A stretch of DNA of 64,000 bases, from assembly GCF_009914755.1 (NCBI RefSeq), contig NC_060943.1; one strand, given 5' to 3'. Of the stretch, positions 19,038 through 26,228 are shown piece by piece. This DNA comes from the human T2T-CHM13v2.0 reference genome, Homo sapiens. A program made the position numbers and the translations under genes. Position 1 is the stretch's first letter; every line of letters starts with the position of its first letter. The notes below the pieces were generated by a model that made no database searches, had not been told where the DNA came from, and worked only from the letters and a program-made list of their open reading frames with translations.

Positions 19038-19052
19038 CAAGATTTTTTTTTT
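19038..19052. repeat. TSD of compound L1, left copy (right copy 26032-26046)
   Basis: CAAGA(T)10 at both ends; TTTT/AAAA endonuclease-type site at 26043-26050; flanks rejoin as one old L1M sequence. Confidence 0.85.
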
Positions 19053-19053
19053 T

Positions 19054-19128
19054 CACTGTTAAATATTCTTCTTTATTTTCCATTTCAGTAAAACAATAGC
19101 TTAAGATGCAGGGTGAATCTATATTTCC
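19054..19128 (-). other. Putative L1 3' transduction (75 bp)
   Basis: Non-L1 sequence between the L1 tail and the TSD; AATAAA (- strand, 19072-77) 18 nt before the terminal A-run. Confidence 0.75.
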
Positions 19129-20932
19129 TTTTTTAATTTTATATTTTAATATTATTATACTACAAGTTTTAGGGTACATGTGCACAATGTGCAGGTTAGT
19201 TACATATGTATACATGTGCCATGCTGGTGTGCTGCACCCATTAGCTCGTCATTTACCATTAGGTATATCTCCTAATGCTATCCCTTCCCCCTCCCCCCAC
19301 CCCACAACAGTCCACAGAGTGTGATGTTCCCCTTCCTGTGTTCATGTGTTCTCATTGTTCAATTCCCACCTATGAGTGAGAATATGCAGTGTTTGGTTTT
19401 TTGTTCTTGCGATAGTTTACTAAGAATGATGATTTCCAGTTTCATCCATGTCCCTACAAAGGACATGAACTCATCATTATTGATGGCTGCATAGTATTCC
19501 ATGGTGTATATGTGCCACATTTTCTTAATCCAGTGTATCATTGTTGGACATTTGGGTTGGTTCCAAGTCTTTGCTATTGTGAATACTGCCACAATAAACA
19601 TACTTGTGCATGTGTCTTTATAGCAGCATGATTTATAGTCCTTTGGGTATCTACCCAGTAATGGGATGGCTGGGTCAAATGGTATTTCTAGTTCTAGATC
19701 CCTGAGGAATCGCCACACTGACTTCCACAATGGTTGAACTAGTTGACAGTCCCACCAACAGTGTAAAAGTGTTCCTATTTCTCCACATCTTCTCCAGCAC
19801 CTGTTGTTTCCTGACTTTTTAATGATCGCCATTCTAACTGGTGTGAAATGGTATCTCATTGTGGTTTTGATTTGCATTTCTCTGATGGCCAGTGATGATG
19901 AGCATTTTTTCATGTGTTTTTTGGCTGCATAAATGTCTTCTTTTGAGAAGTGTCTGTTCATGTCCTTTGCCCACTTTTTGATGGGGTTGTTTTTTTCTTG
20001 TAAATTTGTTTGAGTTCATTGTAGATTCTGGATATTAGCCCTTTGTCAGATGAGTAGGTTGCGAAAATTTTCTCCCATTTTGTAGGTTGCCTGTTGACTC
20101 TGATGGTAGTTTCTTTTGCTGTGCAGAAGCTCTTTAGTTTAATTAGATCCCATTTCTCAATTTTGGCTTTTGTTCCCATTGCTTTTGGTGTTTTAGACAT
20201 GAAGTCCTTGCCCATGCCTATGTCCGGAATGGTAATGCCTAGGTTTTCTTCTAGGGTTTTTATGGTTTTAGGTCTAACGTTTAAGTCTTTAATCCATCTT
20301 GAATTGATTTTTGTACAAGGTGTAAGGAAGGGATCCAGTTTCAGCTTTCTACATACGGCTAGCCAGTTTTCCCAGCACCATTTATTAAATAGGGAATCCT
20401 TGCCCCATTGCTTGTTTTTCTCAGGTTTGTCAAAGATCAGATAGTTGTAGATATGTGGTGTTCTTTCTGAGGGCTCTGTTCTGTTCCATTGATCTATATC
20501 TCTGTTTTCGTACCAGTACCATGCTGTTTTGGTTACTGTAGCCTTGTAGTATAGTTTGAAGTCAGGTAGCATGATGCCTCCAGCTTTGTTCTTTTGGCTT
20601 AGGAGTGACTTGGTGATGCGGGCTCTTTTTTGGTTCCATATGAACTTTAAAGTAGTTTTTTCCAATTCTCTGAAGAAAATCATTGGTAGCTTGATGGGGA
20701 TGGCATTGAATCTATAAATTACCTTGGGCAGTATGGCCATTTTCATGATATTGATTCTTCCTACCCATGAGCATGGAATGTTCTTCCATTTGTTTGTATC
20801 CTCTTTTATTTCATTGAGCAGTGGTTTGTAGTTCTCCTTGAAGAGGTCCTCCACATCCCTTGTAAGTTGGATTCCTAGGTATTTTATTCTCTTTGAAGCA
20901 ATTATGAATGGGAGTTCACTCATGATTTGGCT
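19129..20932 (-). mobile_element. Host L1 (L1PA3-like), 3' portion: ORF2 C-terminus, 3'UTR and A-rich tail
   Basis: ORF2p fragments at 19958-20923 and 19359-19961 (-); L1 3'UTR; T-rich tail at 19129-19158. Confidence 0.92.
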
Positions 20933-23890
20933 GGTTTTTTGAAAGGATCAACAAAATTGATAGACCACTAGCAAGACTAATAAAGAAAAAAACATAGAAG
21001 AATCAAATAGATGCAATAAAAAATGATAAAGGGAATATCACCACTGATCCCACAGAAATTACAAAGTACCATCAGAGAATACTACAAACACCTCTATGCA
21101 AATAAACTAGAAAATCTAGATGAAATGGACAAATTCCTTGACACATACACTCTCCCAAGAGTAAACCAGGAAGAAGCTGAATCTCTGAAGAGACCAATAA
21201 AAGGAGCTGAAATTGTGGCAATAATCAAGAGCTTACCAATGAAAAAGAGTCCTGGATCAGATGGATTCACAGCCAAATTCTACCAGAGGTGCAAGGAGGA
21301 ACTGATACCATTCCTTCTGAAACTATTCCAATCAATAGAAAAAGAGGGAATCCTCCCTAACTCATTTTATGAGGCCAGCATCATCCTGTTACCAAAGCCG
21401 GGCAGAGACACAACCAAAAAAGAGAATTTTAGACCAATATCCTTGATGAACATCGATGCAAAAATCCTCAATAAAATACTGGCAAACTGAATCCAGCAGC
21501 ACATCAAAAAGCTTATCCACCATGATCAAGTGGGCTTCATCCCTGGGATGCAGGGCTGGTTCAATATATGCCAATTAATCAATAAATGTAATCCAGCATA
21601 TAAACAGAACCAAAGACAAAAACCACATGATTATATAATAGATGCAGAAAAGGCCTTTGACAAAATTCAATGACACTTCATGCTAAAAACTCTCAATAAA
21701 TTAGGTATTGATGTGACGTATCTCAAAATAATAAGAGCTATCTATGCCAAACCCACAGCCAATATCATACTGAATGGGCAAAAACTGGAAGCATTCCCTT
21801 TGAAAACTGGCACAAGACAGGGATGCCCTCTCTCAACACTCCTATTCAACATAGTGTTGGATGTTCTGGCCAGGGCAATTAGGCAGGAGAAGGAAATAAA
21901 GGGTATTCAATTAGGAAAAGAGGAAGTCAAATTGTCCCTGTTTGCAGATGACATGATTGTATACCTAGAAAACCCCATTGTCTCAACCCAAAATCTCCTT
22001 AAGCTGATAAGCAACTTCAGCAATGTCTCAGGATACAAAATCAATGTACAACAATCACAAGCATTCTTATACACCAATAACAGAGAGCCAAATCATGAGT
22101 GAACTCCCATTCATAATTGCTTCGAAGAGAATAAAATACCTAGGAATCCAACTTACAAGGGATGTGGAGGACCTCTTCAAGGAGAACTACAAACCACTGC
22201 TCAATGAAATAAAAGAGGATACAAACAAATGGAAGAACATTCCATGCTCATGGGTAGGAAGAATCAATATCATGAAAATGGCCATACTGCCCAAGGTAAT
22301 TTATAGATTCAATGCCATCCCCATCAAGCTACCAATGATTTTCTTCAGAGAATTGGAAAAAACTACTTTAAAGTTCACATGGAACCAAAAAAGAGCCCGC
22401 ATCGCCAAGTCACTCCTAAGCCAAAAGAACAAAGCTGGAGGCATCATGCTACCTGACTTCAAACTATACTACAAGGCTACAGTAACCAAAACAGCATGGT
22501 ACTGGTACGAAAACAGAGATATAGATCAATGGAACAGAACAGAGCCCTCAGAAAGAACACCACATATCTACAACTATCTGATCTTTGACAAACCTGAGAA
22601 AAACAAGCAATGGGGCAAGGATTCCCTATTTAATAAATGGTGCTGGGAAAACTGGCTAGCCGTATGTAGAAAGCTGAAACTGGATCCCTTCCTTACACCT
22701 TGTACAAAAATCAATTCAAGATGGATTAAAGACTTAAACGTTAGACCTAAAACCATAAAAACCCTAGAAGAAAACCTAGGCATTACCATTCCGGACATAG
22801 GCATGGGCAAGGACTTCATGTCTAAAACACCAAAAGCAATGGGAACAAAAGCCAAAATTGAGAAATGGGATCTAATTAAACTAAAGAGCTTCTGCACAGC
22901 GAAAGAAACTACCATCAGAGTCAACAGGCAACCTACAAAATGGGAGAAAATTTTCGCAACCTACTCATCTGACAAAGGGCTAATATCCAGAATCTACAAT
23001 GAACTCAAACAAATTTACAAGAAAAAAACAACCCCATCAAAAAGTGGGCAAAGGACATGAACAGACACTTCTCAAAAGAAGACATTTATGCAGCCAAAAA
23101 ACACATGAAAAAATGCTCACCATCACTGGCCATCAGAGAAATGCAAATCAAAACCACAGTGAGTTACCATTTCACACCAGTTAGAATGGCAATCATTAAA
23201 AAGTCAGGAAACAACAGGTGCTGGAGAGGATGTGGAGAAATAGGAACACTTTTACACTGTTGGTGGGACTGTCAACTAGTTCAACCATTGTGGAAGTCAG
23301 TGTGGCGATTCCTCAGGGATCTAGAACTAGAAATACCATTTGACCCACCCAACCCATTACTGGGTAGATACCCAAAGGACTATAAATCATGCTGCTATAA
23401 AGACACATGCACAAGTATGTTTATTGTGGCAGTTTTCACAATAGCAAAGACTTGGAACCAACCCAAATGTCCAACAATGATAGACTGGATTAAGAAAATG
23501 TGGCACATATACACCATGGAATACTATGCAGCCATCAATAATGATGAGTTCATGTCCTTTGTAGGGACATGGATGAAATTGGAAATCATCATTCTCAGTA
23601 AACTATCGCAAGAACAAAAAACCAAACACCGCATATTCCCACTCATGGGGGGAATTGAACAATGAGAACACATGGACACAGGAAGGGGAAAATCACACTC
23701 TGGGGATTGATGTGGGATGGGGGGATGGGGGAGGGATAGCATTGGGAGATATACCTAGTGCTAGATGACGAGTTAATGGGTGCAGCACACCAGCATGGCA
23801 CATGTATACATATGTAACTAACCTGCACATTGTGCACATGTACCGTAAAACTTAAAGTATAATAATAATAAAAAAAGAAAAATAAATAAA
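20930..23890 (+). mobile_element. Nested, oppositely oriented L1 (L1PA3-like), 3' ~2.96 kb with its own A-tail
   Basis: ORF2p fragments including RT motif LFADD (21680-22102) and C-terminus; 3'UTR and tail at 23860-23890. Confidence 0.92.
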
Positions 23891-25583: not shown

Positions 25584-25838
25584 ATGGCGGGTGCCCCTCC
25601 CCCAGCCTCGCTGCTGCCTTGCAGTTTGATCTCAGACTGCTGTGCTAGCAATCAGCGAGACTCTGTGGGCGTAGGACCCTCCGAGCCAGGTGCAGGATAT
25701 AATCTGCTGTTGTGCGGTTATTTAAGCCCGTCGGAAAAGCGCAGTATTAGGGTGGGAGTGACCCGACTTTCCAGATGCCGTCTGTCACCCCTTTCTTTGA
25801 CTAGGAAAGGGAACTCCCTGACCCCTTGCACTTCCTGA
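25584..25838 (+). CDS. L1 ORF0 (antisense-promoter ORF), open, 84 aa
   Basis: MAGAPPPASLLPCSLISDCCASNQRDSVGVGPSEPG..., the primate L1 ORF0 N-terminus; expression unproven. Confidence 0.6.
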   Translation: MAGAPPPASLLPCSLISDCCASNQRDSVGVGPSEPGAGYNLLLCGYLSPSEKRSIRVGVTRLSRCRLSPLSLTRKGNSLTPCTS

Positions 25839-26015
25839 GTGAGGTAATGCCTAGCCCTGCTTCGGCTCTTCCACGCTTTGCTGCCCCCACTGTCCTGCGC
25901 CCACTGTCTGTCACTCCCTAGTGAGATGAACCCGGTACCTCGGATGGAAATGCAGAAATCACCCGTCTTCTGCATCACTCACGCTGGGAGCTGTAGACCG
26001 GAGCTGTTCGTATTT

Positions 26016-26025
26016 GGCCATCTTG
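26016..26025 (-). promoter_or_regulatory. Intact YY1 site at L1 5' end
   Basis: CAAGATGGCC on the - strand. Confidence 0.75.
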
Positions 26026-26228
26026 GCTGCTCAAGATTTTTTTTTTAAAACTGAATCATATTCCATTCTATCATACATGTCTTCAAGGTCTTTTGTTGCA
26101 TATTTTATATATAGATTCATAAATGTAATTGCTGTATTTGATAATTTTATTTTTAGTTATTTGAAGTACATTTATAACATAATAAAATAGTATGTGCATC
26201 CTTGTTTTCCACCAACGATGCACATGGG

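What the first reader, a model, noticed from the sequence alone, without database searches (positions are those of the whole stretch)
19038..26046. Compound L1 locus built like a hairpin-RNA gene: promoter, 1.78 kb inverted repeat, polyA signal
Seen: one 15-bp TSD encloses, on the - strand, an intact L1 5'UTR with its YY1 site and a disrupted ORF1. Next come arm 2 (22086-~23864), a 1153-bp spacer, arm 1 (~19155-20932, the reverse complement of arm 2), then the L1 tail and an AATAAA. This is not ordinary twin priming: there are two complete 3' ends and the 5'UTR is collinear with the outer one. Inference: an RNA from the L1 promoter, or the ZNF254 pre-mRNA on the other strand, would fold into a ~1.8 kb near-perfect duplex of ORF2/3'UTR sequence. 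The architecture resembles maize Mu killer and Drosophila hpRNA loci. It could be an ADAR substrate, an MDA5/PKR ligand or an endo-siRNA source against young L1s. Function is untested.
Basis: partly seen in the sequence, partly recalled or inferred. Interest (0 to 1): 0.85.

Follow-up and report, generated by a model that had tools for sequence, protein, structure and literature searches.

The report
Nested inverted L1 pair, arms homogenised
An old L1 retrotransposon in a ZNF254 intron was hit by a second L1 in the opposite direction, and later copying between the two made a 1.8 kb near-perfect inverted repeat; it is a tidy example of known processes, not a purpose-built hairpin gene.

Summary
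A 15-nt direct repeat (19038-19052 / 26032-26046) encloses a minus-strand L1 whose middle is replaced by an inverted L1 piece. The arms are 19121-20932 and 22086-23898, 97.6% complementary, 1153 nt apart.

It resolves into known events:
- A full-length L1PA with a ~70-nt 3' transduction.
- A second, 5'-truncated L1 (20933-23891, plus strand) with its own A-rich tail. It entered at an endonuclease-type site in the first L1's ORF2, has 3-nt microhomology at its 5' end and no duplication, and ~2.2 kb of the host L1 is missing.
- Arm-to-arm gene conversion. Arm divergence rises from 0.4% (inner 1 kb) through 2.7% to 10% (3'UTR), while each arm is ~5% from a third L1 in the window. The arms also share a frameshift and 11 private amino-acid changes.

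Either strand's RNA would fold: 1747 of 1783 columns Watson-Crick, longest perfect run 496 bp. Such long, highly paired inverted-LINE duplexes are already catalogued (about 2,000), and intronic ones are held non-immunogenic. No evidence of selected function. New member of a known kind; interest about 0.3.

The parts
19038..19052 (-). Left copy of the target-site duplication of the outer L1. Its 10 T (A on the minus strand) merge with the A11 poly(A) tail (T run 19043-19053).
   Evidence: 15-nt exact direct repeat with 26032-26046; sequence read.
19054..19125 (-). About 70 nt of non-L1 sequence between the L1 3' end and the final poly(A) tail. It holds AATAAA at 19077-19072, about 20 nt before the tail. 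Read as a 3' transduction.
   Evidence: Alignment of arm C to the reference L1 stops at 19128; sequence; hexamer position.
19121..20932 (-). Arm 1 = segment C: the 3' 1.8 kb of the outer L1 (reference-L1 positions 4383-6184), comprising the ORF2 C-terminal part, the 3'UTR and an A/T-rich tail. Frameshift at about 19985-19999.
   Evidence: BLAST to arm 2 and to the window's other L1 at 55703-57504, 94.5%; ORFs 19958-20947 and 19359-20015.
20933..22085 (+). The 'spacer' = unique 5' part of the inner L1 (segment B, reference positions ~3201-4382). It encodes ORF2p residues ~398-750 with 2 in-frame stops and scrambled stretches.
   Evidence: BLAST 20930-23893 vs 58686-55701; match to ORF2p 8uw3_A 398-750, E 1.7e-191, stops read as X.
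22086..23898 (+). Arm 2 = 3' 1.8 kb of the inner L1 (segment B), with an A-rich tail 23867-23891. Frameshift at about 23019-23033, identical to that of arm 1.
   Evidence: ORF2p 742-1066 and 1063-1274.
20930..20935 (.). 5' junction of the inner L1 with the outer L1. It has 3-nt microhomology (GCT) and no target-site duplication.
   Evidence: Comparison of both sides with the reference L1.
23887..23896 (.). 3' junction: the inner L1's tail abuts outer-L1 position ~2150. The intact outer sense strand there reads as a T-run/A-run step, an L1-endonuclease-type site.
   Evidence: Outer L1 sense sequence compared with the reference L1 at its positions 2100-2200.
23892..26031 (-). Segment A: 5' 2.14 kb of the outer L1. 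It comprises the 5'UTR (26031-25004, 1028 nt), ORF1 remnant (ATG 25003, early frameshift, 3 in-frame stops, natural stop near 23989), the inter-ORF spacer and the first ~12 codons of ORF2.
   Evidence: BLAST vs 59739-61886, 92.0%; ORF1p 2yko_A E 5.8e-124.
26032..26046 (-). Right copy of the target-site duplication, directly abutting the L1 5' end.

Best explanation
The locus is a two-step nested L1 insertion that was later homogenised.

Step 1 (sequence shown, mechanism inferred): a full-length L1PA element inserted on the minus strand by target-primed reverse transcription. It carried ~70 nt of 3'-transduced flank and made a 5-15 nt target-site duplication.

Step 2 (sequence shown, mechanism inferred): a second, independent L1 RNA was reverse-transcribed from a nick at a T-run/A-run site near codon 12 of the first element's ORF2, in the opposite orientation. 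Its cDNA stopped ~2.96 kb from the 3' end and was joined through 3 nt of microhomology to host-L1 position ~4383. About 2.2 kb of the host L1 was lost (an L1 insertion-mediated deletion). This placed two L1 3' ends tail-outward, with the inner element's unique 1153 nt as spacer.

Step 3 (supported by statistics, mechanism inferred): repeated arm-to-arm gene conversion, most recent next to the spacer, erased most differences between the two originally independent copies.

Consequence (inferred, not measured): the ZNF254 pre-mRNA carries a ~1.8 kb intramolecular duplex. It is most likely bound and edited by nuclear ADAR and discarded with the intron. This is a by-product, not a selected hairpin gene.
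For: Outer element:
- Exact 15-nt flanking repeat, with the right copy abutting the L1 5' end.
- Segments A and C are collinear with, and in the same orientation as, a 6.19 kb L1 elsewhere in the window.
- An AATAAA lies ~20 nt before the terminal A11, inside non-L1 sequence.

Inner element:
- It has its own A-rich tail, 23867-23891.
- By comparison with the reference L1, the host sense strand at the junction is a T-run followed by an A-run. The endonuclease preference itself is recalled.
- GCT microhomology at the 5' junction and no duplication.
- Host positions ~2153-4382 are absent.

Independence of the two copies:
- In the outer 200 nt, 14 of 20 variable sites separate the arms. That equals the 2/3 expected for three unrelated copies (binomial p = 1).
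- Arm-arm divergence there is 10%, against 12.3% and 9.2% to the third copy.

Conversion:
- In the inner 1014 nt only 4 sites differ, 3 of them at CpG, although each arm differs from the third copy at ~4.8%.
- The fraction of variable sites that separate the arms is 4 of 49 (inner), 14 of 33 (middle) and 14 of 20 (outer). Binomial p against 2/3 is 1.5e-17, 0.0049 and 1. Fisher inner vs outer gives 4.9e-07.
- The longest run of variable sites with the arms identical is 25, reached in 6 of 20000 permutations.
- Both arms carry the same frameshift allele.
- Both arms differ from L1HS ORF2p at 22 residues in 748-1066. Of these, 10 are shared with the third copy, 1 is three-way, and 11 are arm-only; all 11 arm-only changes are present in both arms.
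- The inner element is not young. Its unique part has 2 stops and scrambled stretches, and its C-terminal part differs from L1HS ORF2p at 18 of 209 residues (my count from the alignment).

Duplex: 1747 Watson-Crick columns of 1783 and a longest perfect run of 496. In a fold of 20633-22385, 298 of the first 300 nt pair with the last 300.
Against: - Only one third copy served as yardstick. If it belongs to a different subfamily, the 2/3 expectation shifts.
- The 3'UTR evolves faster in all comparisons, so part of the gradient could be rate heterogeneity. This does not explain the inner-versus-middle ORF2 contrast of 4/1014 vs 15/551 (p = 1.1e-4).
- The frameshift lies in an A-rich tract where the third copy is also frameshifted, by a different sequence. 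That site is mutation-prone and is weaker evidence than it looks.
- The 2.2 kb loss could have happened after insertion rather than during it.
- No other genome or assembly could be examined. Concerted evolution, the order of events and the correctness of the assembly all rest on this one sequence.
- The subfamily could not be assigned, because no consensus library was available.
Confidence: 0.75

Rival explanations
1. A single complex retrotransposition event (twin priming or template switching on one L1 RNA) produced all three segments at once.
For: One target-site duplication encloses everything. The arms are very similar.
Against: - The inverted piece ends in its own A-rich tail at an endonuclease-type site that lies inside L1 sequence. 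The host L1 therefore already existed as DNA.
- The overlap is 1.8 kb and 2.2 kb is missing, whereas reported twin-priming junctions carry 1-10 bp deletions or duplications (PMC11702581 passages).
- The 3'UTRs and tails of the two arms are as different as unrelated copies.
- Only the outer arm has the transduced 70 nt.
Confidence: 0.04
2. A DNA-level inverted duplication (fold-back or replication template switch) copied arm C to create arm B after a single L1 insertion. There was no second retrotransposition.
For: Near-identity of the inner kilobase and the shared frameshift. Fold-back junctions linked to L1 activity are described in PMC11702581 (passages).
Against: - Segment B extends 1153 nt beyond the homology into L1 sequence that the outer element no longer has.
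- B ends in its own tail at an endonuclease-type site.
- B lacks the transduced sequence.
- A duplication predicts uniform divergence, not 0.4% / 2.7% / 10%.
Confidence: 0.05
3. The inner L1 inserted with an ordinary small duplication, creating a long spacer-less palindrome. A later centre-break deletion removed the host's ~2.2 kb, and perhaps the inner element's own 5' part, leaving the stabilising 1153-nt spacer.
For: The deletion sits exactly at the palindrome centre. The 5' junction has only 3 nt of microhomology, as end joining would give. Instability of closely spaced inverted repeats is reviewed in PMC7999016 (search listing and abstract start only).
Against: It needs one more event than deletion at insertion. 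Truncated L1 insertions with microhomology and target-site deletions are an observed outcome of a single event (PMC11702581 passages, where only short 0-20 bp deletions are reported; larger ones are recalled from older literature that I did not read here).
Confidence: 0.2
4. The locus is a selected hairpin-RNA producer, driven by the L1 promoter or by ZNF254 transcription. It would act as a source of endo-siRNAs against L1, an ADAR sponge or an innate-immune ligand, and the arms would be kept alike because the duplex matters.
For: - An unusually long, well-paired duplex: 496-bp perfect run, and a 741-bp run without mismatch in the plus-strand RNA when G-U pairs are counted.
- The arms were homogenised recently.
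- The first 400 nt of the 5'UTR keep CpG observed/expected of 0.57-0.61.
- Long nearly perfect duplexes are reported as depleted even from pre-mRNAs (PMC7006430 passages), so a surviving one in a gene is uncommon.
Against: - Gene conversion needs no selection.
- The duplex is intronic, and intronic dsRNAs are described as removed by splicing and not sensed by MDA5 (PMC12695637 passage).
- About 2,018 long (>300 bp), >96% paired duplexes are predicted in the genome, mostly between inverted LINEs and mostly unedited (PMC11838218 section 10).
- There is no Rfam family in 18500-26600 (0 matches).
- The promoter-bearing element is decayed, and polyadenylation hexamers precede the second arm.
- None of the papers listed by the two searches that included ZNF254 (15, 10) contains that name.
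Confidence: 0.06
5. Assembly artefact: the inversion does not exist in the genome.
For: None from the sequence.
Against: The arms differ at 41 mismatches and 2 gaps. Both internal junctions bear hallmarks of retrotransposition. The inner piece carries 1153 nt present nowhere else in the locus.
Confidence: 0.02

Closest known systems
Long, nearly perfect inverted duplicated sequences in human pre-mRNAs (PMC7006430; the 'long, highly paired' class of the dsRNAscan preprint PMC11838218)
   Same: More than 300 bp and more than 96% paired, formed between inverted LINE elements, inside an intron.
   Different: At ~1.8 kb it is far above the 300-bp threshold. Its origin and conversion gradient are worked out here.
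L1 insertion-mediated target-site deletion
   Same: A truncated L1 with an A-rich tail at an endonuclease-type site, no target-site duplication, microhomology at the 5' junction, and target DNA missing.
   Different: The target is itself an L1 in the opposite orientation, so the event creates a palindrome. The ancestral state is inferred from L1 collinearity, not from an empty allele.
Sex-chromosome palindromes kept alike by arm-to-arm gene conversion (PMC3723533, PMC8981503; abstract starts only)
   Same: Inverted arms with a spacer. Arm identity is far higher than the age of the sequences allows.
   Different: It is about 1.8 kb rather than tens to hundreds of kb, autosomal, and its arms began as two separate retrotransposon copies. 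Identity is graded (99.6% to 90%) rather than uniformly above 99%.
Twin-priming L1 5' inversion
   Same: An L1 with an inverted internal segment inside one target-site duplication.
   Different: The inverted piece has its own tail, overlaps the other by 1.8 kb, and the 5' end is collinear with the 3' end.
Hairpin-RNA loci (maize Mu killer, Drosophila hpRNA, mouse oocyte hairpin endo-siRNA loci; all recalled, none read here)
   Same: Transposon-derived inverted repeat downstream of a promoter, able to form a long hairpin.
   Different: No evidence of transcription across both arms, of Dicer products or of silencing. The locus is intronic in a host gene.

Membership tests
Long, highly paired intramolecular dsRNA (>300 bp, >96% paired; PMC11838218, PMC7006430) | Length over 300 bp and over 96% of positions paired | tested here: met
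   1747 Watson-Crick of 1783 aligned columns (98.0%); longest perfect run 496 bp.
Long, highly paired intramolecular dsRNA (>300 bp, >96% paired; PMC11838218, PMC7006430) | Both arms lie in one transcription unit | tested here: met
   By the supplied RefSeq table, 19038-26046 lies between ZNF254 exons ending at 16231 and starting at 33213. No transcript data were examined.
L1 insertion-mediated deletion | L1 with poly(A)/A-rich tail at an endonuclease-type target site | tested here: met
   Tail 23867-23891 abuts a T-run/A-run step of the host L1 sense strand. The consensus preference is recalled.
L1 insertion-mediated deletion | No target-site duplication, and target sequence missing relative to the pre-insertion state | tested here: met
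   The flanks of 20933 and 23891 share no repeat. Host L1 positions ~2153-4382 are absent. The pre-insertion state is inferred from another L1, not from an empty allele.
Palindrome with arm-to-arm gene conversion | Arm identity higher than expected from the age of the arms, with tract-like heterogeneity | tested here: met
   0.4% / 2.7% / 10% arm divergence against ~5% to a third copy. Star-tree binomial p 1.5e-17 (inner) and 1 (outer). Run test 6 of 20000.
Palindrome with arm-to-arm gene conversion | Concerted change seen across species or haplotypes | not testable with these tools
Twin-priming 5' inversion | Inverted segment adjoins the 3' segment on the RNA template with only small deletion or duplication, and has no tail of its own | tested here: not met
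   1.8 kb overlap, 2.2 kb gap, own A-rich tail. The compared series has 1-10 bp junction changes (PMC11702581).
L1 3' transduction | Unique non-L1 sequence between the L1 3' end and the terminal poly(A), inside the target-site duplication, with a downstream polyadenylation signal | tested here: met
   19054-19125 is non-L1. AATAAA at 19077-19072, A11 at 19053-19043, then the duplication. The source locus was not sought.
Hairpin-RNA / endo-siRNA locus | Transcript spanning both arms, Dicer-sized small RNAs from the arms, and silencing of targets | not testable with these tools
   No expression or small-RNA data. Only the structural prerequisite, the inverted repeat, is met.
Known structured RNA family (Rfam 15) | Match at gathering score | tested here: not met
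   0 matches in 18500-26600 on both strands.

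The most novel reading that the evidence does not exclude
Ongoing gene conversion keeps the inner kilobase almost perfect: 4 differences in 1014 nt, 3 of them at CpG. This would make the locus one of the longest near-perfect intramolecular duplexes inside an expressed human gene. When the ZNF254 intron is retained, or the old L1 promoter is derepressed, it would then be a dominant ADAR1 substrate, an MDA5/PKR ligand or a Dicer source of L1-directed small RNAs. 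That would be a human counterpart of transposon-killer hairpins, sitting inside a KRAB zinc-finger gene.
Probability: 0.06. Interest if true: 0.7.

Novelty: new member of a known kind. Interest (0 to 1): 0.3.

Why it matters
The locus is a clean worked example of how two independent retrotransposon copies can become a long near-perfect palindrome. The steps are nested antisense insertion, a kilobase-scale target deletion, then graded arm-to-arm conversion.

It shows that high arm identity in inverted LINE pairs need not mean youth or a duplication. This matters for anyone dating such repeats or listing candidate immunogenic dsRNAs.

If the duplex were shown to leave the nucleus, it would be a strong candidate ligand. 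On present evidence it is an intronic by-product of a kind already catalogued genome-wide.

Tried and rejected
I could not see whether this locus is in its Table S5, nor in the tables of PMC7006430.
I replaced it with pair counting and a fold of 20633-22385.
- Four literature queries failed on term length and were re-sent.
- Subfamily assignment was not possible, because no L1 consensus library is on hand. As substitutes I used the window's other full-length L1 (55701-61886) and the solved L1HS ORF1p/ORF2p chains.
- The 1028-nt 5'UTR is ~120 nt longer than the ~0.9 kb I recall for L1HS. That fits an element predating the 129-bp deletion described for L1PA3 (PMC7110667 passages), but I did not locate that segment.
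- I first thought the arms were closer to the third copy than the spacer is. Mismatch-only windows showed no such anomaly.
- I considered that the inner element's inner part was copied from the host L1 at insertion. I rejected this because its own 3' part is old: 18 of 209 residues differ from L1HS ORF2p (my count).
- The search for ZNF254 together with inverted repeat or dsRNA listed 15 papers. The search with A-to-I, hairpin or LINE-1 listed 10 papers. None of the listed papers contains ZNF254.
It was re-sent with the field filled.

Full report
OBSERVATION

The inverted repeat is real and far beyond chance.
- The repeat finder reports arms 19366-20932 / 22086-23652 (1567 nt, 99% complementary, 1153 nt apart) and their continuation 19137-19370 / 23647-23880 (234 nt, 91%).
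- Gapped BLAST joins them as 19121-20932 vs 22086-23898: 97.57% over 1814 columns, 41 mismatches, 2 gap openings.
- The 15-nt direct repeat 19038-19052 / 26032-26046 is exact.
- AT skew changes sign at ~20.9 kb and ~23.85 kb, as expected for minus / plus / minus L1 orientation.

ANATOMY

I used the window's other full-length L1 (55701-61886, minus strand, 6186 nt) as a ruler. The locus then falls into three segments:
- A, 26031-23892, minus strand, ruler positions 1-~2150.
- B, 20933-~23866 plus tail to 23891, plus strand, ruler positions ~3201-6186.
- C, 20932-~19128, minus strand, ruler positions 4383-6184.

A and C are collinear and in the same orientation. B lies between them, inverted. 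It encodes ORF2p residues ~398-750, with 2 in-frame stops and scrambled stretches (8uw3_A, E 1.7e-191, stops read as X).

The arms encode ORF2p 742-1066 (8sxt_A, E 2.6e-200) and 1063-1274.

A holds:
- a 1028-nt 5'UTR;
- an ORF1 remnant (2yko_A, E 5.8e-124) with the ATG at 25003, an early frameshift and 3 in-frame stops;
- the first dozen codons of ORF2.

OUTER ELEMENT

The right copy of the duplication abuts the L1 5' end.

At the left end the L1 body and a short A/T-rich tail stop near 19126. About 70 nt of non-L1 sequence follows. Then come an AATAAA (19077-19072, minus strand), an A11 tail and the left copy of the duplication. This is the layout of a 3' transduction.

Ten of the 15 duplicated bases are the A run that also served as priming site, so the duplication is 5-15 nt long.

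INNER ELEMENT

B ends in its own 25-nt A-rich tail. Comparison with the ruler shows that the host L1's sense strand at this point is a T run followed by an A run. That is the kind of site the L1 endonuclease nicks (the preference is recalled). The host L1 must therefore already have been DNA when B arrived.

B's 5' end joins host position 4383 through 3 nt of microhomology (GCT). There is no flanking duplication, and host positions ~2153-4382 are gone.

Truncated insertions with microhomology and target-site loss are a described outcome of L1 integration (PMC11702581 passages). That series reports only short losses; kilobase-scale ones are recalled from literature I did not read here.

The same paper reports twin-priming junctions with 1-10 bp deletions (22 of 32) or duplications (10 of 32). 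This locus does not fit that pattern.

WHY THE ARMS ARE SO ALIKE

Arm differences are not evenly spread:

| Region | Differing / columns | Divergence |
|---|---|---|
| 22086-23099 (inner) | 4 / 1014 | 0.4% (3 of the 4 at CpG) |
| 23100-23649 (middle) | 15 / 551 | 2.7% |
| 23650-23779 (3'UTR) | 13 / 130 | 10% |

Against the ruler L1, B differs at 145 of 2925 aligned positions (4.96%) and C at 90 of 1783 (5.05%), roughly evenly along ORF2.

For three unrelated copies of similar age, two thirds of variable sites should separate any given pair. One search examined 102 ungapped variable columns:

| Region | Variable sites separating the arms | Binomial p vs 2/3 |
|---|---|---|
| Outer 200 nt | 14 of 20 | 1 |
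| Middle | 14 of 33 | 0.0049 |
| Inner | 4 of 49 | 1.5e-17 |

Further tests:
- Fisher inner vs outer: 4.9e-07.
- Per-base inner vs middle: 1.1e-04.
- The longest run of variable sites with identical arms is 25, reached in 6 of 20000 permutations.

So the two copies were independent at their 3' ends and have been made alike toward the spacer.

Two further points agree.
- Both arms carry the same frameshift allele in an A-rich tract (23019-23033 / 19985-19999). Caveat: the ruler L1 is also frameshifted in that tract, by a different sequence, so the tract is mutation-prone.
- Both arms differ from L1HS ORF2p at 22 residues in 748-1066. Of these, 10 are shared with the ruler (older lineage states), 1 is three-way, and 11 are arm-only with ruler = L1HS. 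All 11 arm-only changes are present in both arms (counted by eye from the printed alignments). Private changes of one decayed copy present in both arms mean DNA-level copying.

B cannot be a recent insertion of a young L1. Its unique part is broken, and its C-terminal part differs from L1HS ORF2p at 18 of 209 residues, about 7 of them not shared with C (my counts).

Arm-to-arm gene conversion is the established cause of such identity in larger palindromes (PMC3723533 and PMC8981503, abstract starts only).

Rough dating, using recalled substitution rates of about 0.1-0.2% per million years per lineage:
- About 2.5% private divergence per copy puts both insertions in the order of 10-20 million years ago.
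- About 0.2% per arm puts the last inner conversion within the last one to a few million years.
This is inference only.

WHAT THE RNA WOULD DO

Over 1783 aligned columns:

| RNA strand | Watson-Crick | G-U | Mismatches | Gap columns | Longest run without mismatch (G-U counted) |
|---|---|---|---|---|---|
| Plus (ZNF254 sense) | 1747 | 13 | 21 | 2 | 741 bp |
| Minus | 1747 | 8 | 26 | 2 | 496 bp |

- The longest perfect Watson-Crick run is 496 bp.
- A fold of 20633-22385 (MFE -778.0 kcal/mol) pairs 298 of the first 300 nt with the last 300.

By the supplied gene table the whole locus is intronic in ZNF254.

The literature places it in a known class.
- The dsRNAscan preprint predicts 2,018 human duplexes longer than 300 bp and more than 96% paired. 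Most lie between inverted LINEs, 88% are intergenic and 74% are unedited (PMC11838218, section 10 read).
- PMC7006430 reports depletion of such structures even from pre-mRNAs, with heavy editing of some expressed ones (passages).
- PMC12695637 states that intronic dsRNAs are removed by splicing and are not sensed by MDA5 (passage).
- PMC13251931 finds MDA5-filament RNAs to be mainly 3'UTR inverted Alus (passages).

For the L1-promoter reading:
- The 5'UTR keeps CpG observed/expected of 0.57-0.61 in its first 400 nt but 0.34 overall.
- The element is decayed.
- Four AATAAA/ATTAAA hexamers precede completion of the second arm on the minus strand.
- Rfam has no match in 18500-26600.

VERDICT

The 'hairpin gene' reading is an over-interpretation of a nested L1-in-L1 insertion with target deletion and later gene conversion.

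My confidence in this composite history is about 0.75:
- outer element with transduction, ~0.9;
- B as an independent insertion, ~0.85;
- conversion, ~0.85;
- deletion at insertion rather than later, ~0.6.

It is a new member of known kinds. The graded conversion between two once-independent L1 copies is the most instructive feature. The functional reading stays possible but unsupported (~0.06).

The history rests on one assembly and one yardstick copy, because no second genome, expression data or supplementary tables could be consulted.

Noticed in passing
window 55701-61886 (minus strand): A second full-length (6186 nt) L1PA-type element, about 5% from segments B and C and 7.7% from A. Its ORF2 needs at least three frames to be read in the 4383-5340 region and holds many stops. 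I used it here as the ruler.
   Followed up: partly
window 23019-23033, 19985-19999 and the homologous tract of the L1 at 55701-61886: All three L1 copies are frameshifted within the same ~15-nt A-rich tract of ORF2. The two arms share an identical sequence there and the third copy has a different one. This suggests a slippage hotspot.
   Followed up: partly
window 18480-18790 and 26229-26542: Two Alu elements in opposite orientation bracket the compound L1: poly(A) near 18770 on the plus strand and a poly(T) head at 26232-26259. The repeat finder pairs 18676-18767 with 26246-26337 (92 nt, 77% complementary, 7478 nt apart). This is a second, weaker potential stem around the whole locus.
   Followed up: no
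window 19054-19125 (minus strand): The ~70-nt transduced tag could identify the source L1 of the outer element if searched against the genome. That was not possible with the tools here.
   Followed up: no
window 20979-23881 (plus strand): Segment B lies in the sense orientation of ZNF254 and contributes 16 AATAAA/ATTAAA hexamers to the pre-mRNA. Whether any is used for premature polyadenylation was not examined.
   Followed up: no
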